From: Minisyncoccota bacterium | Lineage (GTDB): Bacteria > Patescibacteriota > Minisyncoccia > Phycocordibacterales > CAIJYI01 | Direction of reading: 5' to 3' | Assembly (NCBI GenBank): GCA_023229825.1 | Contig: JALNYN010000007.1 | Coordinates: 2,596-66,595, forward strand | Length of the DNA stretch: 64,000 bases | Shown: positions 43,545 through 62,473 of the stretch, piece after piece | How positions within the stretch are numbered: position 1 is the stretch's first letter | Layout: each line of letters begins with the position of its first letter | Position numbers and translations under genes: made by a program | Notes under the pieces: model-generated | Databases searched by the model: none | Told to the model about the DNA's origin: nothing | The model's input: the letters and a program-made list of their open reading frames with translations, nothing else

Positions 43545-43760
43545 TGTCGTTACGTCCGGCGGTACAACGTGGATCCCGGGTCCATCCTTCGCCAAGGCTA
43601 CGGCAAGGCACGGCGTTGCCCGGGATGACGACAGACAATTTTAAAGTCTTTTATCGTCATTCCGGACTTGATCCGGAATCCACGTCTGTCAGCTCACGTG
43701 GATCCCGGGTCCATCCTTCGCCAAGGCTACGGCAAGGCACGGCGTTGCCCGGGATGACGA
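43545..43760. repeat. cluster of GTCATTCCGG-family units including two identical 62-bp long-variant copies
   Basis: acgtggatcccgggtccatccttcgccaaggctacggcaaggcacggcgttgcccgggatgac at 43567-43628 and 43696-43757, with gtcattccggacttgatccggaatccacg between them. The ORF-track ORF 43544-43807 is a translation of these repeats. Confidence 0.8.
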
Positions 43761-47294: not shown

Positions 47295-48146
47295 ATGAAA
47301 AGATCAAATTCAATAATACTATTTAATCAAAAACAAATTCGCCGTGTGTGGGATGAAGAAAAAGAACTTTGGTATTTTTCGGTAATTGATACGATCGGTG
47401 TGTTAAGCGAAAGTCAAGACCCGAGAAATTATTGGAAAGTGTTAAAAATTCGCTTAAAACAAGAAGGAAACGAGTCGGTTACAAAATGTAACCAACTGAA
47501 AATGCAGTCATCAGACGGTAAATATTATCTTACCGATGTTGCCGACACGGAAACGATGTTTCGCCTTATCCAATCAATTCCTTCTCCGAAAGCGGAACCA
47601 TTCAAGCTCTGGCTTGCGAAAGTTGGATATGAAAGGATGGAAGAAATGGAAGATCCGGAACTTTCTTTTGATCGTGCAGTGAAAACATACTTACAGAAAG
47701 GATACTCCGAAAAATGGGTGAATCAAAGGATCAAAAGCATTGAGGTGCGGAAAGATCTGGTTACCGAATGGGGAGAACGCGGAATAAACGAAAATTCAGA
47801 ATATGCCTTATTAACCGACGAGATTACGCGAGCATGGGCGGATAAAAGCGTGAAAGATTATAAAAAATTTAAGGGATTGAAAAAAGAAAATCTCCGCGAC
47901 AATATGACGAATCTTGAATTGGCTTTGAATACGCTTGCGGAAGTTTCCACAACGGAAATCTCCAAAAAGAAAAAACCGCAAGGGTTGGCAAGCAACAAAC
48001 AAGTCGCGCGTGCAGGAGGGCTTGCTGCGAAAAAAGCGAGGATCGAGATCGAAAAACAGATAGGCGAAAGCGTGATTACACCAAGAAATGCAAAAATTTT
48101 AATGAGTAAACAAAATCCGGCTTTATCGGCTAAAAATAAGAAATAG
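47295..48146 (+). CDS. Bro-N / DinD-like (antirepressor-family N-terminal domain) protein
   Basis: N-terminal ILFNQKQIRRVWDEEKELWYFSVIDTIGVLSES resembles the Bro-N/DNA-damage-inducible D fold. Lys-rich C-terminus. Sits in an AT-rich stretch. Confidence 0.5.
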   Translation: MKRSNSIILFNQKQIRRVWDEEKELWYFSVIDTIGVLSESQDPRNYWKVLKIRLKQEGNESVTKCNQLKMQSSDGKYYLTDVADTETMFRLIQSIPSPKAEPFKLWLAKVGYERMEEMEDPELSFDRAVKTYLQKGYSEKWVNQRIKSIEVRKDLVTEWGERGINENSEYALLTDEITRAWADKSVKDYKKFKGLKKENLRDNMTNLELALNTLAEVSTTEISKKKKPQGLASNKQVARAGGLAAKKARIEIEKQIGESVITPRNAKILMSKQNPALSAKNKK

Positions 48147-48185
48147 GCATGTCAATCCAAATTTTAACAGACAAAGGTAAAATTT

Positions 48186-48377
48186 ATGGAGGTCGATAAA
48201 AAATTACGAAATAAATATTTTTACGAAAGACCGAAACTTGTAAATAGAGCTCGGTGTAAAAATTATAACCCAGAAAAAGGATGCTTGTATTGCGGAAGCA
48301 AAACTTTTCGTTTTTATTCCAGTGTTTATGGTAAAAAATATTATCAGTGCGAAAAGTGCCACGGAATAAATCATTGA
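48186..48377 (+). CDS. small zinc-ribbon protein (possible IS1595-type transposase N-terminal Zn-ribbon remnant)
   Basis: 63 aa with CLYCGS...YQCEKCH (CxxC-N17-CxxC). Immediately followed by a REP-like repeat copy. Confidence 0.4.
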   Translation: MEVDKKLRNKYFYERPKLVNRARCKNYNPEKGCLYCGSKTFRFYSSVYGKKYYQCEKCHGINH

Positions 48378-48393
48378 GATCAAAGAGCGATCC

Positions 48394-48445
48394 GTAATAA
48401 AGGGGACAGCCACCATTGTTTGTTAAAATATGTGTTGTAATTTAT
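48394..48445. repeat. REP-like repeat, direct copy of the left flank of the RAYT gene
   Basis: aataaaggggacagccaccattgtttgttaaaatatgtgttgtaat versus 51937-51992. Confidence 0.75.
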
Positions 48446-48543
48446 TTATAAAAAAGAAAAACGCCAACTTAACTTGTGGGGTATTTTATTTTTGCATATA
48501 TTTCTATCCCCTCTCTTGGCATCCGTGATATAATGGAAGACAT

Positions 48544-49098
48544 ATGAACATCTTCGACATATTTCTCACGGGGTTCAGCCTTTCGCTTGATGCGGTGGCT
48601 ATCGCTGTGGCGGCGGGGGCGTTGCATAAGATCGATCTTCGGCATGCGGTGAAGATCGCGGTGTTTTTTGGCGGGTTTCAAATGTTCATGCCGCTTATCG
48701 GATGGATGGCCGGTTTGGGGTGGAGCGGATATTTGGAATCTTATGGAAATATGATCGGGTTCGTTCTTCTCTTTGCTGTCGGGCTGAAAATGCTTTTGGA
48801 GACGTTCAAGAAAGAAACAAAAGAAGAGGTCAAACAAGAAAAACATCTGGCGGAAACCAAAACGCTCACCATCATGGCGGTCGCGACGAGTATCGATGCT
48901 CTCGTCGTCGGGATAACTTTCAACTTCGTTCCCGTCAATATCCCGCTTGCGGTCGGTATCATCGGAGCCGTCACGTTCGTCCTATCCCTCGCCGCCGTTT
49001 ACATCGGAGAAAAATTCAAACGCATCATCGGCAAAGAGATCGAATGGCTGGGCGGCCTGGTCTTGATCGGCCTTTCCATAAAAATTCTGTTAAGCTGA
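48544..49098 (+). CDS. mntP: manganese efflux pump MntP
   Basis: 184 aa, 6 TM, with duplicated SLDA(V/L)(A/V)(I/V)G DUF204 motifs. Confidence 0.8.
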   Translation: MNIFDIFLTGFSLSLDAVAIAVAAGALHKIDLRHAVKIAVFFGGFQMFMPLIGWMAGLGWSGYLESYGNMIGFVLLFAVGLKMLLETFKKETKEEVKQEKHLAETKTLTIMAVATSIDALVVGITFNFVPVNIPLAVGIIGAVTFVLSLAAVYIGEKFKRIIGKEIEWLGGLVLIGLSIKILLS

Positions 49099-49281
49099 TA
49101 AAATTAAAATAATTAAAATATCCAGAACCTCCAAAATTTGCGATTAAAACCGCTAGTTGGCGGTTTTGCTTTTAATTACAGTATTCCTCTTCTATTGTTT
49201 GTTTATTGCAGTACCTAAATTACATCTATTTCTGGGGAGCATTGTTTAGACAATATTCTCTTTTTTAGATATACTTTCATT

Positions 49282-49893
49282 ATGGAAAAACAACAAATAC
49301 TTGTCATTCACGGAGGAAATGCTTTTACTACCAACGAACAATATATCAATTCTCTCCAAAATTCACGCTTGGATCTAGACAAATTGCGAATGAAAAAAGA
49401 TTGGAAAGATTCGCTTCAAGAAAAACTCGGGGGAGCTTTTGATGTCCTTCAACCGAGGATGCCGAACGCTTCCAACGCACAATATGAGGAGTGGAAATTA
49501 TGGTTTGAAAAAGCGGCAGTATTGCTGGATGACGACATTATTCTTGTAGGGCATTCGCTCGGCGGAATTTTCCTTGCCAAATATCTTTCAGAAAATGATT
49601 TTCCAAAAAAGATCAAAGCAACATTCTTGATTTCGGCCCCCTTTAGCAATGGGGAAGATGAACCTCTCGGCTCATTTGTTTTGTCGAAACCATTAAAAAA
49701 AATGGAGAAACAAGGAGGAAAAATTTTCTTGTATCACAGTAAAGATGACAAGGTTGTACCTTTTACCGAAGTAAAAAAATACATAGATCAATTGGCTGGA
49801 GCGACCACTCATTTCTTTGAAGATCGCGGTCATTTTAATCTGGAAAGTTTTCCGGAATTGATACAGGAAATACAAAATATCTCCAGCTATTGA
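49282..49893 (+). CDS. alpha/beta hydrolase, RBBP9/YdeN-type serine hydrolase
   Basis: ILVIHGG...LVGHSLGG nucleophile elbow, about 200 aa. Confidence 0.65.
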   Translation: MEKQQILVIHGGNAFTTNEQYINSLQNSRLDLDKLRMKKDWKDSLQEKLGGAFDVLQPRMPNASNAQYEEWKLWFEKAAVLLDDDIILVGHSLGGIFLAKYLSENDFPKKIKATFLISAPFSNGEDEPLGSFVLSKPLKKMEKQGGKIFLYHSKDDKVVPFTEVKKYIDQLAGATTHFFEDRGHFNLESFPELIQEIQNISSY

Positions 49894-49972
49894 AATTTTT
49901 GACATATTAGGATAATGTGTCTTTTATAGGTTCTTTTTAAGACCAAAATTTATATAGAAAGGAGAATAATCA

Positions 49973-51025
49973 ATGAATAAGCCAAAACGTCTTGAAAAAG
50001 GCGATACTATTGCTTTGGTCAACCCGGCGGGATTGCCGCCATTAAGATTTAGACACTTTATTCCATTGATGAAGCAATATCTGGAGAAAGAAGGTTTTTT
50101 CGTAAAACTGTACTTAGCTGAAGAAACAGCTACCGCTGAACGACTTGGTAATGTTTTTACAGAAGCATGGCTTGATTCTGAAGTTCAGGCCGTTTTTCCC
50201 ATTTGTGGAAGCTCTGTCATTTTTGAAGTATTGCCTTGTCTTTACAGTGATCTCTTAAAACAAAAAAAGGTAATATTTTGCGGATCAAGTGTTTTATCTT
50301 CGTTATCTATCTGGTTAAGTCAGCACGCTCAAGTTGTAACATTCTTTGGACCACACATTCCTTTCATTCATTCTTGTGCGCCTCAAAGAGAAAATGAATT
50401 TACCGTGCAAAGTTTTTGGGATATGATAATGTGGAAAAAGGGAAAAGCGAATAATATGTCTTCAGTCCATGAGCGACATAATTTTTTCAGCGTTAATGAT
50501 TCAAACACTCAAGATATTAAGATTAAGAATCTCTATTTACGCCCAGACTTAATCAAAGATAAACAAAAACGAGTTGCACTGTTTTTTTCATTAACAGAAA
50601 AAGTTGTTAGCGGAAAAACCTTTTGCATCACAATGGAGTGTCTACTCAGTATGGCGCGCTTGGGTTTATTGCCGAGCGTGACAAATTCGATTATCTTCAC
50701 GGAAACAATGGATTGGAATTTGGAACAGATAAAAAATACTTTCGAAGAGCTCTCGAGGCTAGATGCTTTTCATGGGGCAAATGCAGTATTCATTACGGCC
50801 TTCACCGAAAGGACTGACCGCAAAGAATTAGACTTCCCTGAATTGAGAGACCCAGCGAAAGTAAAAATTCTATGTTCTTCTATTTCCGAAAGAATCCAGT
50901 TACCTGTTCTTTATGGGTTTCCCATGGGGCATGGTTCATATAAATTAACTTTACCTCAAAACATTTCTTGTTCAATAAATCCAGAAGACGGCAGTGTTTA
51001 CTTATTGGAGCGTCCAGTTGCATAA
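49973..51025 (+). CDS. peptidase S66 family (LD-carboxypeptidase / MccF-like), divergent
   Basis: N-terminal L.KGDTIALVNPAGLP pattern and overall length and layout fit S66. The catalytic-Ser region is divergent (GSSVLSSLS). AAGGAG RBS. Confidence 0.5.
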   Translation: MNKPKRLEKGDTIALVNPAGLPPLRFRHFIPLMKQYLEKEGFFVKLYLAEETATAERLGNVFTEAWLDSEVQAVFPICGSSVIFEVLPCLYSDLLKQKKVIFCGSSVLSSLSIWLSQHAQVVTFFGPHIPFIHSCAPQRENEFTVQSFWDMIMWKKGKANNMSSVHERHNFFSVNDSNTQDIKIKNLYLRPDLIKDKQKRVALFFSLTEKVVSGKTFCITMECLLSMARLGLLPSVTNSIIFTETMDWNLEQIKNTFEELSRLDAFHGANAVFITAFTERTDRKELDFPELRDPAKVKILCSSISERIQLPVLYGFPMGHGSYKLTLPQNISCSINPEDGSVYLLERPVA

Positions 51026-51061
51026 TAATTATCCCCCGAGAAATTTTCTCGGGGGATTATT

Positions 51062-51838
51062 TTATTTTTTTAACTTTGCTATCTCGGCAAGAATTCGGAT
51101 GTGCGATCTATCTCCTAGTCCATGCCTTTCACCAAGTATCTTTCTAAGATTGTCTTGAGTGAACGGGGGTGTTCCAAAATTTTCTCCGACCATCTTCACA
51201 AGTGATTTGGTCTCGTTTTTGTATTCAAGAGTTTTTGAATATACAAGGTTTCTTAACAGGGTAACGACCTTTTCTTCTTTTGAGAGATTGGCAAACTTTT
51301 TTAGATCCAGTTGATTTGCAAGAACATTTCGTATTCTCTCGATAAGCACCACATAAAGATCGTTGGCGTCACAAGTATTACCACTTTCAATTGTTTTGAG
51401 TAACTCACCGATGATATCTGAAAAATCAACACTGGTGTTTAATGTAGCACATCCAAATGATATATCCGTCGTCCCAATATCGAGTGTCGTATTTTCGAAT
51501 AACAATGTTGGAATATGTATTTGTGTTAAATACTCAAAAAAAGATGAAGTTTCATTCGGTGTATCTGCTGTACCGAGAATAAAAATTTCCTCACCTGCAG
51601 GTAAAAAGTTGCATTCAAAAAATTTGTGCGGTCTTTTGTTGAGATACTGATAATATATCGAGCCAACCACACGATTATAGCTGTCAACTAAAACTTCTGC
51701 TTTGGCTCTGCCGTTTTTTGCCACATATACTCCGAGATTATCAATGTCTCCGGTTACACCAAAAAGAGTAACATGCGGATTCAGATAAAAGTAACGTAAT
51801 ACCGCAACGATTTTCTTACTCCAGATTCGAATTTTCAT
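51062..51838 (-). CDS. standalone divergent GGDEF-like (nucleotidyl cyclase palm) domain protein with uncharacterised C-terminal region
   Basis: GDIDNLGVY...GRAKAEVLVDSYNRVVGSIYY...FLPAGEEIFILG parallels GGDEF DIDHFKxIND...GHxxGDxVL...RYGGEEFxxLL, with AGEEI in place of GG(D/E)EF. No sensor domain. GGAGG RBS. Confidence 0.45.
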   Translation of the reverse strand: MKIRIWSKKIVAVLRYFYLNPHVTLFGVTGDIDNLGVYVAKNGRAKAEVLVDSYNRVVGSIYYQYLNKRPHKFFECNFLPAGEEIFILGTADTPNETSSFFEYLTQIHIPTLLFENTTLDIGTTDISFGCATLNTSVDFSDIIGELLKTIESGNTCDANDLYVVLIERIRNVLANQLDLKKFANLSKEEKVVTLLRNLVYSKTLEYKNETKSLVKMVGENFGTPPFTQDNLRKILGERHGLGDRSHIRILAEIAKLKK

Positions 51839-51936
51839 GGGTTCCTCCGATTTTTTAATTTTTCTACATCAATAGTACATAAAAATAAATAAATGTCAAA
51901 AAACCGACCATTTCTGGTCGGCTGTACTTAGTCTAA

Positions 51937-52714
51937 GAATAAAGGGGACAGTCACCATTGTTTTATAAAAAATATGTTGTAATATATAAGATATGCCAAG
52001 AAACGCAAGAACAGATGTCGGCGGTGAGATCTATCACGTCATCAACCGAGCAAACGGTCGCATGGTGATCTTTAATACTCCGGAGGATTATCTTCTATTC
52101 GAAAATCTTTTGTTTGATACAAAAGAACTGACTGGAATGAGGATCCTCGCTTACACCATTATGCCGAATCATTGGCACTTTATTCTACATCCGCAAAAAG
52201 ATGGGGACCTTGGTATATTTATGCATCGTCTTTCAAATGCGCATACACGAAAAGTTCACGCACTAACAAACACTAATGGGACAGGCCATCTCTACCAGGG
52301 TCGCTACAAATCTTTTCTCGTTGATTCCGACAGTTATTTTCTCACACTTTTGAAATATGTCGAAAGAAATCCGGTCAGATCAAAGACGGTAGAACATTGC
52401 GAAGATTGGCAATGGGGAAGCGCATGGCGGAGAATAAACGGTTCAAAAGCGGAAAAAAAGTTGATCGATCCGCCGATCGTGGAACTTCCTCATGGATACA
52501 AAAAATGGATAAATACACCGGATAAGGAAGATGACCTCGCTGTCATCCGCACTTCTGTAAACAAAAGCGTGCCGTTCGGAAGAGATAAATGGGTGGATCA
52601 AATGGTGACAAAGTTTCATCTTGAATCAACGCAAAAAAAACAGGGCAGACCGAAGAAAAGATAAACATTAGAACACGTGAAATGCAAAACAATGGTGGCT
52701 GTCCCCTTTATTGG
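51937..52714. mobile_element. REP-associated tyrosine transposase (RAYT) unit: Y1 HUH transposase gene flanked by inverted REP-like repeats
   Basis: Left flank aataaaggggacagtcaccattgtttt (51937-51964), right flank aaaacaatggtggctgtcccctttatt (52688-52714), in inverted orientation around the gene. Confidence 0.7.
51993..52664 (+). CDS. IS200-like HUH Y1 transposase, REP-associated (RAYT / TnpA_REP) type
   Basis: YHVINRANGRMVIF, HUH motif HWHFIL, catalytic-Tyr region YQGRYKSFLV. 223 aa. Confidence 0.8.
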   Translation: MPRNARTDVGGEIYHVINRANGRMVIFNTPEDYLLFENLLFDTKELTGMRILAYTIMPNHWHFILHPQKDGDLGIFMHRLSNAHTRKVHALTNTNGTGHLYQGRYKSFLVDSDSYFLTLLKYVERNPVRSKTVEHCEDWQWGSAWRRINGSKAEKKLIDPPIVELPHGYKKWINTPDKEDDLAVIRTSVNKSVPFGRDKWVDQMVTKFHLESTQKKQGRPKKR

Positions 52715-61557: not shown

Positions 61558-61740
61558 CCGCAGGTAGGAATTTCTCTCCTTACTGGAGCAGTACACCTTT
61601 CCGATTTGTTCGGATTGCTATCCTCACAAATAGCGGAGAAGGTTTTCGAATCCTACCGCGCGAGACAAGCAGTTGTCTCGCTCGCGGAGCAATACAAAAA
61701 AGACACTTTATATAAAGTGTCTTTTTTGTATTGCTCCGCG
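61558..61740 (+). ncRNA. structured repeat element copy 2, abutting the tRNA-Asn 3' end; terminates in a 28-bp perfect palindrome
   Basis: Homologous to 57270-57475. Contains ggttttcgaatcctaccgcgcgag, which mimics the tRNA-Asn T-arm plus acceptor in the opposite orientation. A direct repeat of the tRNA 3' end (tcctacctgcggagcc, minus sense) lies at 61551-61567. The palindrome at 61683-61740 overlaps the tRNA acceptor 3' strand. Confidence 0.5.
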
Positions 61741-61771
61741 GGTAGGATTCGAACCTACGACCAATCGGTTA

Positions 61772-62359
61772 CACTTGTCCTTGTGTTACCACTAGGGGTG
61801 GACTATATCATCTCCTTGTTTGTCTTGCGACAAGTTTAGGAGTGGGGCGCTTCGGGCTGAAATGTTTTTTAAAATATTCCAGGCCTACTCCCTTGCGGGA
61901 TAGTCTCTGAACCTTTCCTGCTTCGCTAAAGCTTCACAGGACTTGGCTGCTGATTGCCCCTCAATTACTCTCGGGGTTTCCAGCAATTCACCTCATTTTT
62001 CAACCTAAGTTTCCTTAGGAAGCTGCGTGAGACCATCGTGCACTTCCATGTGACAGTTTGCGCACAAGAGAACGCATTTCGCGATCTCCTTTTGAATTTT
62101 TTCCCACGATTTCGTGAGCCCTCTAGCCGACAACCCAAAATCTTTTTTCTTTGGATCTCGGTGATGAAAACTCAATGCCCGAGGGCATTTATCGTAACCG
62201 CAGATTGCACACTTATCACCTTTATATTTGCGTGCCATTTCTCGAAGCTTTTTACGGCGTTCAGAAACAGCCTTTTTCAAATACTCTGCACGATCGGCAT
62301 AAGTTCTTGTTTCTGGCATATACATCGTAGTATACCATAGAAAAACTTATTACGTGTCC
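61772..62359 (-). mobile_element. group I intron (about 588 nt) with internal HNH endonuclease ORF
   Basis: Conserved core elements on the minus strand in canonical order: P AATTGCTGGAAA (61988-61977), Q AATCAGCAGCC (61955-61945), R GGTTCAGAGACTATCCCGC (61913-61895), S GATGATATAGTCCAC (~61812-61798). The 5' exon ends in U and the intron ends in G. Confidence 0.7.
62005..62325 (-). CDS. HNH homing-type endonuclease (intron-encoded)
   Basis: 106 aa. CAICGY...HHRDP...N...LLCANCH HNH/His-Me finger motif. Located between the 5' splice site and the P element of the intron. Confidence 0.75.
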   Translation of the reverse strand: MYMPETRTYADRAEYLKKAVSERRKKLREMARKYKGDKCAICGYDKCPRALSFHHRDPKKKDFGLSARGLTKSWEKIQKEIAKCVLLCANCHMEVHDGLTQLPKET

Positions 62360-62473
62360 ACAGCCGATTGCTCTACCGCTGAGCTACCGCGGAATGTTGT
62401 GTAGCTCTTTGTGCTTTTTGGCACTTTTTGATAATAGCAAAAAAACTCCCGAAATGCAACGAACTGGAGGGAT

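What the first reader, a model, noticed from the sequence alone, without database searches (positions are those of the whole stretch)
51937..52714. RAYT-type Y1 transposase flanked by inverted REP-like repeats, with a third solo repeat 3.5 kb away next to a zinc-ribbon ORF
The 223-aa protein has the HUH (HWHFIL) and Tyr (YQGRYKSF) motifs of REP-associated tyrosine transposases. It is bracketed by aataaaggggacag[t/c]caccattgtttt in inverted orientation (51937-51964 and 52688-52714), the classic RAYT/REP arrangement. A 50-bp direct copy of the left flank sits at 48394-48445. It lies immediately after a 63-aa CxxC...CxxC zinc-ribbon ORF that looks like an orphan IS1595-type transposase N-terminus. 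The about 3.5-kb segment between the two direct copies (mntP, RBBP9-like hydrolase, S66 peptidase, GGDEF-like gene) could have been co-mobilised.
Basis: partly seen in the sequence, partly recalled or inferred. Interest (0 to 1): 0.55.

Follow-up and report, generated by a model that had tools for sequence, protein, structure and literature searches.

The report
Tyrosine nuclease gene between inverted repeats
This is a small gene for a single-strand DNA-cutting enzyme, related to REP-associated transposases, bracketed by its own matching inverted repeats; the arrangement (a "TIRtron") has already been described in other bacteria, so this is a new example from Patescibacteria, not a new kind of system.

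Summary
A 223-aa Y1/HUH protein (51993-52664, +) is bracketed by inverted repeats at 51938-51988 and 52662-52712. The 26-nt core is identical apart from one C/T. A third, solo copy lies at 48396-48445. No such matches are expected by chance.

The protein is closest to E. coli TnpA_REP (PDB 4ER8) by sequence and by predicted fold. It scores below NCBI's RAYT cut-off (65.9 vs 80 bits). The repeats are not GTAG-tagged REP palindromes. They carry GGGGACAG, which fits the GGGGWSAS motif that defines the terminal inverted repeats of TIRYT genes ("TIRtrons", Di Nocera 2013).

The catalytic tyrosine is Y122 (KYVERNP), not the YQGRYKSF motif. The 63-aa zinc-ribbon ORF is not shown to be IS1595-derived. 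In relatives it sits between a PLD-type nuclease gene and a DNA methyltransferase gene. Co-mobilisation of the 3.5-kb block is not supported.

In 80 related loci the same gene-plus-repeat unit recurs. The repeat core is an imperfect CAG-loop hairpin that changes along with the protein. Extra repeat copies are few. Partial "stutter" copies lie outside many ends in relatives.

Verdict: a new Patescibacteria member of a known, biochemically untested kind. Interest is moderate to low.

The parts
51938..51988 (+). Left terminal inverted repeat. The 26-nt conserved core is 51938-51963. The imperfect hairpin core AAAGGGGA-CAG-TCACCATT is 51941-51959, with the CAG loop at 51949-51951. The inner part (about 51975-51985, TGTTGTAATAT) looks like an extended -10 element 8-10 nt before the ATG.
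   Evidence: The promoter reading is an inference from TGnTAnAAT being conserved before the ATG in related loci. The consensus promoter scan did not flag it.
51993..52664 (+). Gene for a 223-aa Y1/HUH tyrosine endonuclease (TIRYT, RAYT-like). HUH is H60/H62. The catalytic Tyr is Y122 and the metal ligand is N126. A helical C-terminal extension spans about aa 140-210, and the protein ends in GRPKKR.
52662..52712 (-). Right terminal inverted repeat. The core is 52687-52712. On the + strand the hairpin core is 52691-52709, with the loop CTG at 52699-52701. The repeat overlaps the stop codon of the gene.
48396..48445 (+). Solo copy of the repeat, in the orientation of the left end (88% identity to it over 50 nt). 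The CAG loop is at 48407-48409. It starts 18 nt after the stop codon of the 63-aa ORF, where homology to related genomes ends.
   Evidence: tblastn found no gene remnant beside it.

Best explanation
**What it is.** The locus is a TIRtron. It is a gene for a RAYT-like Y1/HUH single-strand DNA endonuclease (a TIRYT) flanked by its own cognate terminal inverted repeats.

**The repeat.** Each repeat carries a GGGGACAG motif. Across the family this motif forms the 5' arm and loop of an imperfect 8-bp hairpin with a CAG loop.

**Most likely mechanism (inferred by analogy with E. coli TnpA_REP and IS608/ISDra2 TnpA).**
1. The enzyme recognises this structured repeat on single-stranded DNA.
2. It nicks via Y122, with H60/H62/N126 holding the metal, and forms a 5'-phosphotyrosine link.
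3. It can rejoin the strands.

**Expected consequences (inferred).**
- This activity would maintain the matched pair of ends.
- It would occasionally spawn solo copies, such as 48396-48445, gene-less doublets and partial duplications.
- The left repeat also overlaps the gene's probable promoter, so binding could autoregulate expression.

**How the gene behaves.** It looks like a conserved resident gene under purifying selection, not a proliferating insertion sequence.

**Shown versus inferred.** Shown: the anatomy, the homology, the co-variation of repeat and protein, and the hairpin signal. Inferred: binding, cleavage site, strandedness and biological role.
For: **Protein.**
- Pfam Y1_Tnp, E 1.3e-12.
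- The only NCBIfam hit is REP_Tyr_transpos.
- The best PDB sequence hit is 4ER8.
- The AlphaFold model has mean pLDDT 77.8. Its best fold match is 4ER8, with E 8.9e-8 and TM-score 0.65 normalised to the target.
- H60, H62, Y122 and N126 are invariant in 76 intact ORFs of 222-227 aa, at 47-100% identity.

**Repeats.**
- The three copies have a chance expectation of 0.
- GGGGACAG fits the GGGGWSAS motif of TIRYT repeats.
- The same 21-mer is present in 8 other Patescibacteria MAGs. Mostly it lies about 35 nt upstream of a homologue, with an inverted copy 750-850 nt downstream.
- In 81 loci the motif is present at 69 left ends and 76 right ends.
- The left and right cores are identical in 53 of 65 loci. 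Mean mismatches are 0.25 within a locus and 2.6 between loci.
- The core type tracks the protein clade.

**Hairpin.**
- 71.9% of cells are paired, against 67.3% in shuffles. No shuffle of 500 reached the observed value.
- All four Watson-Crick pair types occur at one position.
- Family variants fold with z scores of -3 to -4.3.

**Signs of DNA processing in relatives.**
- Partial outer-arm copies lie outside 60 of 133 ends, against 7 of 133 on the inner side. Many break in the loop.
- Gene-less doublets occur in L008 and L009.

**Stable locus.** Related genes keep related flanks.
Against: - No biochemical data exist for any TIRYT, so binding and cleavage are inferred by analogy only.
- The three copies in this window are the weakest hairpins of the family. 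They read AAAGG...CCATT, with one extra mismatch, and fold at z about 0.
- 42 of 139 sequences are unpaired at the co-varying position, and the pair nearest the loop centre is mostly a mismatch.
- The CAG loop is invariant partly by construction, because it was in the search pattern.
- Palindromic co-variation would also arise from a dimeric double-strand DNA-binding site.
- Pfam detects no HTH domain in the C-terminus. Assignment to subclass 2.1 of Quentin et al. is therefore unproven.
- The window's own copies show no stutter footprints.
Confidence: 0.72

Rival explanations
1. The 775-bp unit is an autonomous insertion sequence. The whole unit, from repeat to repeat, is a currently mobile element that transposes as a block.
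For: - Two contigs of one Nomurabacteria MAG (L001 and L005) carry the same left end and gene start with different outer flanks.
- 5' gene fragments lie next to full copies in L050, L052, L060 and L090.
- Many homologues sit on contigs of about 1 kb, as collapsed repeats do.
- The closest homologue (P0002, 82% aa identity) lies in an unrelated gene neighbourhood.
Against: - There is one copy in 64 kb.
- No target-site duplication is visible at the ends.
- Genes of 76-96% nucleotide identity keep homologous flanks, which points to a stable, vertically inherited locus.
- 76 of 81 copies are intact with uniform length, and residues are invariant down to 47% identity.
- There are no relatives in IMG/VR.
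- Inverted ends put the recognised hairpin on opposite strands. This does not fit one-strand excision as in IS608.
Confidence: 0.15
2. This is a canonical RAYT/REP system. The flanking repeats would belong to a genome-wide family of REP palindromes or REPINs spread by the enzyme.
For: - The protein is closest to TnpA_REP.
- The flanking copies are in inverted orientation.
- One solo copy occurs in the window.
- Relatives carry REPIN-like doublets.
- About 18 dispersed copies occur in 314 kb of related flanks.
Against: - The NCBIfam score is 65.9, below the cut-off of 80.
- There is no GT[AG]G foot.
- The GTAG-reading motif WQxRFxEH is replaced by YQGRYKSF.
- The repeats in the window are not stable palindromes.
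- Only one extra copy occurs in 64 kb.
- The conserved repeat is about 50 nt long and includes non-palindromic inner sequence.
Confidence: 0.08
3. The repeats are only expression signals. They would be an upstream insulator or operator plus promoter, and a downstream bidirectional terminator, and the enzyme's substrate would lie elsewhere.
For: - In many relatives the hairpin is flanked by an A-run and a T-run, for example AAAAGGTGTCAGACACCTTTT.
- The left repeat lies 27-53 nt before the ATG and overlaps the -35/-10 region.
- The right repeat overlaps the stop codon.
Against: - The loop and the asymmetric mismatches stay the same or change together with the protein across 47-100% identity, and the two ends stay identical.
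- Gene-less doublets, solo copies and loop-truncated partial copies occur.
- The stems in this window are too weak to terminate transcription, and the terminator scan did not flag them.
Confidence: 0.05

Closest known systems
TIRYT / TIRtron (Di Nocera, De Gregorio and Rocco 2013, PMC3733652)
   Same: - A RAYT-like tyrosine transposase gene flanked by terminal inverted repeats instead of REPs.
- The repeat carries the GGGGWSAS motif (here GGGGACAG).
- The repeats sit at a fixed distance from the gene, and the 3' repeat overlaps the coding end.
- A few extra single or dimeric repeat copies occur in the genome.
   Different: - The described examples came from Acidobacteria, Proteobacteria and others. 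None came from Patescibacteria.
- Here the repeat core shows hairpin co-variation.
- Many relatives have stutter copies outside the ends. I did not find this described in the passages of the two TIRYT papers I read.
TnpA_Y1 subclass 2.1 (Quentin, Siguier, Chandler and Fichant 2018, PMC6006769)
   Same: - A Y1/HUH core with a C-terminal extension.
- No canonical REP nearby.
- The authors equate this subclass with the TIRYTs.
- The motif in the GTAG-reading region differs from that of REP-associated subclasses.
   Different: - Subclass 2.1 proteins are described as among the longest, with a C-terminal HTH (Bac_DnaA_C, HTH_23 or HTH_28).
- This protein is 223 aa and has no Pfam HTH hit.
- The subclass profiles were not available, so I could not test membership.
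E. coli TnpA_REP / RAYT with REP and BIME sequences (PDB 4ER8; PMC3479197)
   Same: - It is the best sequence and fold match.
- The HUH motif, the catalytic Tyr and the Asn metal ligand all align.
- The gene lies between inverted copies of its cognate structured repeat.
- In that system a mismatch in the hairpin is needed for binding. The conserved mismatches here may play the same role.
   Different: - 17% identity in the fold alignment.
- No GTAG guide, and no known CT cleavage site.
- The repeat is longer and only weakly palindromic.
- The repeat copy number is low.
- The C-terminal extension is 80 aa longer and helical.
IS200/IS605 TnpA (IS608, ISDra2)
   Same: - The Y1 HUH fold.
- Pfam Y1_Tnp.
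- Presumed action on single-stranded hairpin DNA.
   Different: - Those elements have different left and right subterminal hairpins and no terminal inverted repeats.
- Their TnpA is about 130-155 aa, and they often carry tnpB.
- None of these features applies here.

Membership tests
TIRYT / TIRtron | The protein is a RAYT-like Y1 enzyme with HUH and a catalytic Tyr. | tested here: met
TIRYT / TIRtron | The gene is flanked by terminal inverted repeats, not by REP palindromes. | tested here: met
   The arms are 51 nt at 76% complementarity, and the 26-nt core differs at one position. Single copies do not fold.
TIRYT / TIRtron | The repeat carries the GGGGWSAS motif. | tested here: met
   GGGGACAG is present in all three copies.
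TnpA_Y1 subclass 2.1 | The protein has a C-terminal HTH-like domain (Bac_DnaA_C, HTH_23 or HTH_28). | tested here: not met
   Pfam gives only Y1_Tnp, covering aa 13-126. The model shows a helical extension at aa 143-207. All 19 PDB matches with E <= 0.001 are Y1 transposases. I did not search the C-terminal extension on its own.
TnpA_Y1 subclass 2.1 | Placement by the authors' subclass HMMs or MCL clustering. | not testable with these tools
RAYT / REPtron | The protein reaches the curated RAYT model threshold. | tested here: not met
   NF047646 scores 65.9 bits against a cut-off of 80.
RAYT / REPtron | The flanking repeats are REPs: 20-40 nt palindromes with a GT[AG]G foot. | tested here: not met
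   There is no GTAG. The window copies fold at z about 0. Across the family the core is an imperfect hairpin.
RAYT / REPtron | The flanking repeat is abundant genome-wide. | tested here: inconclusive
   One extra copy occurs in 64 kb. About 18 occur in 314 kb of related flanks. The whole source genome was not available.
RAYT / REPtron | The gene is single-copy and vertically inherited. | tested here: inconclusive
   There is one copy in the window. Three groups of relatives have syntenic flanks. One MAG has two copies, and the 82%-identical homologue has a different context.
IS200/IS605 | Distinct subterminal hairpins at the left and right ends, no terminal inverted repeats, and a short TnpA often with TnpB. 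| tested here: not met
   The ends are inverted copies of each other. The protein is 223 aa. No TnpB-like ORF is nearby. No IS200 NCBIfam model matched.
IS1595 (for the 63-aa ORF) | A match to the N-terminal zinc ribbon of IS1595 transposases, or homology to such transposases. | tested here: not met
   The Pfam PF12760 hit has E 0.1 and 13 bits against a cut-off of 25.4. The only homologues are three 63-aa ORFs that lie between PLDc_2 and N6_N4_Mtase genes.

The most novel reading that the evidence does not exclude
Across Patescibacteria this family could be a domesticated enzyme-plus-hairpin pair in which the Y1 nuclease nicks inside the CAG loop of its cognate hairpin. That would resemble a rolling-circle Rep protein at an origin, and differ from IS608 and TnpA_REP, which cut outside the hairpin. 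The tandem partial copies ending at ...CA or ...CAG outside many ends would then be the footprints of repeated nicking and rejoining. The system would be a conserved, host-retained driver of local rearrangements in these tiny genomes. The solo repeat at the synteny breakpoint at 48396 would be one example.
Probability: 0.12. Interest if true: 0.6.

Novelty: new member of a known kind. Interest (0 to 1): 0.33.

Why it matters
**What is still unknown.** The cellular role of RAYT-like domesticated tyrosine transposases is unknown. No TIRYT has been tested biochemically.

**What this locus adds.**
- It shows that a large and very uniform TIRYT family exists in Patescibacteria: more than 1,600 clusters at 90% identity, all 222-228 aa.
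- The repeats co-vary with the protein and contain a short hairpin with a constant loop.
- This gives a compact, well-defined substrate and enzyme pair for in vitro work.
- The family is also a natural series of matched variants for studying specificity.

**For this window itself.** The element is an ordinary member of a described class. The annotation should read TIR-associated tyrosine transposase (RAYT-like), not IS200 transposase or classic RAYT/REP.

Tried and rejected
- **Single-copy hairpins.** I folded the three window repeats as ssDNA, on both strands. None was better than shuffles, so the REP-palindrome reading was dropped for this window.
- **Rfam and tRNA scans.** Nothing was found at the locus.
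- **Consensus promoter and terminator scan.** The repeats were not flagged. The promoter reading therefore rests only on family conservation.
- **IMG/VR.** There are no relatives, so a phage-borne origin has no support.
- **Synteny test of the co-mobilised block.** None of the neighbouring proteins accompanies a homologue in 89 loci, apart from one Bro-N gene in L052.
- **Search for an empty site.** I used homologues of the PF20603 neighbour. The nearest relatives are at most 72% identical and not syntenic, so the search was uninformative.
- **Remainder of the restriction-modification-like module.** I looked for it downstream of the right repeat. It is absent from the whole window, so a clean insertion of the 48396-52712 block could not be shown.
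- **IS1595 origin of the 63-aa ORF.** Rejected.
- **Tandem repeat near 43.6 kb.** Comparison with L093 suggested a length difference there, but TRF found nothing.
- **Literature.** I found no paper on this family in Patescibacteria.

Full report
**1. The observation**

- The pattern AATAAAGGGGACAGYCACCATTGTTT occurs three times in the window: 48396-48421 (+), 51938-51963 (+) and 52687-52712 (-). None of 100 dinucleotide-preserving shuffles gave any match.
- A looser 13-nt search adds no further credible copy in 64 kb.
- The repeat finder extends the inverted pair to 51 nt, 51938-51988 and 52662-52712, at 76% complementarity.
- The direct pair spans 50 nt, 48396-48445 against 51938-51987, at 88% identity.
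- Between the inverted arms lies one ORF, 51993-52664 (+), of 223 aa. Its stop codon falls inside the right arm. Its ATG lies 5 nt after the left arm.

**2. The protein**

- Pfam gives Y1_Tnp with E 1.3e-12 over residues 13-126.
- NCBIfam gives a single hit, REP_Tyr_transpos (NF047646), at 65.9 bits. This is below the curated cut-off of 80. No IS200 model matched.
- The best solved-structure sequence match is E. coli TnpA_REP, 4ER8 (E 1.2e-3).
- An AlphaFold model built on 30 homologues has mean pLDDT 77.8 and pTM 0.77.
- Its best fold match is 4ER8 (E 8.9e-8, TM-score 0.65 normalised to the target). The IS608, ISDra2 and IS200 transposases follow.
- In the 4ER8 alignment, H60-W61-H62 aligns with the HUH motif H59-M60-H61. 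Y122 (KYVERNPV) aligns with the catalytic Y115. N126 aligns with the metal ligand N119 (residue roles from PMC3479197).
In TnpA_REP that segment reads the GTAG guide sequence. It is a family signature, not the nucleophile.
- Residues about 140-210 form a helical extension with no Pfam match.

**3. The family**

- A protein search returned 1,648 clusters. The best 120 are all 222-243 aa and 65-82% identical. Where they carry a name, they come from Patescibacteria such as Paceibacterota, Kaiser-, Nomura-, Lloyd- and Yonathbacteria. The source contig is a Candidatus Paceibacterota MAG.
- Of the 80 metagenome loci fetched with the protein (47-73% identity) plus the window, 76 of 81 have an intact ORF of 222-227 aa.
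- H60, H62, Y122, N126 and the block GxGHLYQGRYKSF are invariant or nearly so.
- This is the pattern of a gene under purifying selection.

**4. The repeats across the family**

- The exact 21-mer AAAGGGGACAGYCACCATTGT occurs in 10 stretches from 8 other Patescibacteria MAGs. Usually it lies about 35 nt upstream of a homologous MPRxxR gene, with an inverted copy 750-850 nt downstream.
- In the 81 loci a GG[GT]G[AT]CAG motif lies within 110 nt upstream of the start in 69 and within 130 nt downstream of the end in 76. Most of the remainder are cut by contig ends.
- The repeat changes with the protein. It is GGGGACAG in 39 of 43 ends where identity to the query is at least 60%. It is GG[GT]GTCAG in 98 of 102 ends below 60%.
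- The left and right 9-nt cores are identical in 53 of 65 loci. Mean mismatches are 0.25 within a locus and 2.6 between loci.
- The gene and its two ends therefore evolve as one matched unit.

**5. Hairpin content**

- The three window copies do not fold better than shuffles.
- Family variants show that the core is an imperfect palindrome, 5'-AAWGGKGW-CAG-NNNCCWTT.
- Some variants are perfect. AAAGGTGT-CAG-ACACCTTT folds at -8.5 kcal/mol with z = -4.3.
- On an alignment of 139 distinct ends, chosen only by the 5'-arm motif, the 8-pair helix has 71.9% of cells paired against 67.3% in shuffles. No shuffle of 500 reached the observed value. The best slid register gave 63.9%.
- One position shows all four Watson-Crick pairs (UA 73, AU 17, CG 4, GC 2). 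However, 42 sequences are unpaired there, and the third pair from the loop is mostly G·A or G·G.
- The window's copies read AAAGG...CCATT, with one extra mismatch.
- The signal is real but moderate. A dimeric double-strand binding site would also give it.
- The invariance of CAG is partly built into the search pattern.

**6. What is known**

- Di Nocera et al. 2013 (PMC3733652) described RAYT-like genes flanked by terminal inverted repeats instead of REPs. They named these TIRYTs and TIRtrons. Many of the repeats share GGGGWSAS, sit at similar distances from the gene, and have a few extra single or dimeric copies. GGGGACAG fits that motif exactly.
- Quentin et al. 2018 (PMC6006769) place 20 of the 26 TIRYTs in TnpA_Y1 subclass 2.1. 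They found no REPs near that subclass.
- They do not mention Patescibacteria. I found no later paper on TIRYTs, nor one on this family in the Candidate Phyla Radiation.
- The locus is therefore a new member of a known kind that has never been tested biochemically.

**7. Mobile element or resident gene**

Evidence for mobility:
- One MAG has the same left end on two contigs with different flanks.
- 5' gene fragments lie beside full genes in L050, L052, L060 and L090.
- Gene-less doublets occur in L008 and L009.
- The 82%-identical homologue P0002 lies in an unrelated neighbourhood containing an RHS/YD-repeat gene.

Evidence for residence:
- There is one gene copy in 64 kb.
- Pairs or trios of genes at 76-96% nucleotide identity keep homologous flanks: L047/L048/L050 and L069/L077.
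- ORF length is uniform and the ORFs are intact.
- No viral relatives were found.

Dispersed repeat copies are few. About 18 occur in 314 kb of flanks more than 400 nt from the gene, and one in this window.

I favour a RAYT-like, host-retained gene that acts on its own repeats. An active IS is the main rival.

**8. Stutter copies (relatives only)**

- Outside 60 of 133 ends there are one to five tandem partial copies of the outer flank plus the outer hairpin arm. The inner-side control gave 7 of 133.
- Their 3' ends cluster in the G-run (59 copies) or in the loop: after CA (13 copies) and after CAG (16, plus 6 ambiguous).
- This fits nicking and rejoining in the loop, or slippage at a hairpin. 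I could not decide between the two.
- The window's copies lack these partial copies.

**9. The solo copy and the 63-aa ORF**

- The ORF's Pfam hit to the IS1595 zinc ribbon is far below threshold.
- It has three homologues of 63 aa, 81-84% identical.
- In their contigs it overlaps a PLDc_2 nuclease gene upstream and an N6_N4 DNA methyltransferase gene downstream, next to a Bro-N gene.
- The window retains Bro-N (72% nucleotide identity) and the small ORF (83%). It lacks the nuclease gene.
- Homology ends at the small ORF's stop codon, 18 nt before the solo repeat.
- The rest of that module is nowhere in the window.
- The solo repeat therefore marks a synteny breakpoint at the edge of a decayed restriction-modification-like module.
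- This does not show that 48396-52712 moved as a block.
  - No related locus has these neighbours.
  - The low-GC stretch runs from 46.8 to 53.4 kb, beyond both repeats.

**10. Verdict**

- The locus is a TIRYT gene with its inverted repeats plus one solo repeat.
- The mechanism is inferred from TnpA_REP and IS608.
- Novelty: a new member of a known kind.
- Interest: 0.33.

Noticed in passing
window 61730-62395, - strand: A tRNA gene is split in its anticodon loop by a group I intron of about 620 nt (Rfam RF00028, 89.5 bits, 61779-62093). The intron carries a 106-aa HNH-type ORF (62005-62325). The tRNA halves read TCCGCGG-TA-GCTC-AGCGGTA-GAGC-A-ATCGG-CT... and ...AA-CCGAT-TGGTC-GTAGG-TTCGAAT-CCTAC-CCGCGGA-G. 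ARAGORN missed the gene. The anticodon (UGU, GUU or GUG) depends on the splice site.
   Followed up: partly
window 47295-48377; L095, L096, L097: This is the remnant of a mobile restriction-modification-like module. Relatives have Bro-N, a PLDc_2 nuclease gene, the 63-aa zinc-ribbon ORF, an N6_N4 methyltransferase gene, a 157-aa ORF and an AAA_14/DUF4143 gene. The window keeps only Bro-N and the 63-aa ORF. In L097 the methyltransferase gene is followed directly by Bro-N, so the gene order varies.
   Followed up: yes
L011-L090 (for example L056, L082, L055, L052, L064, L066, L077): Tandem partial 'stutter' copies of the outer flank plus the outer hairpin arm lie just outside the inverted repeats at 60 of 133 ends, against 7 of 133 on the inner side. 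Their break points cluster in the G-run and after CA or CAG of the loop.
   Followed up: partly
L008 4314-4356; L009 404-481: Gene-less doublets consist of two repeat cores in inverted orientation, 9 and 44 nt apart. They resemble REPINs or MITEs derived from the element's ends.
   Followed up: no
window 51975-51993 and 48523-48546; upstream regions: A TGnTAnAAT-type extended -10 element lies 6-10 nt before the ATG with no Shine-Dalgarno sequence. It occurs at the TIRYT gene, at mntP, and at nearly all homologues. This suggests leaderless or near-leaderless mRNAs.
   Followed up: no
window about 43631-43696 against L093 1704-1768: An otherwise identical assembly of the same locus from another data set differs by about 64 nt in the intergenic region between the DUF1801 and PNTB genes. 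TRF found no tandem repeat there.
   Followed up: partly
window 51031-51057: A perfect 12-bp GC-rich palindrome with T-runs on both sides lies between the convergent S66 peptidase gene and the 258-aa ORF. It is a likely bidirectional terminator.
   Followed up: no
The GGDEF label has no support.
   Followed up: partly
L002, L003, L004 (Saccharibacteria MAG CAYIBP01): A MAG labelled Saccharibacteria carries the Paceibacteria-type core GGGGACAGCCACCATTG on three contigs. One contig has the gene and two have solo or tandem copies. This could reflect transfer between classes or a binning error.
   Followed up: no
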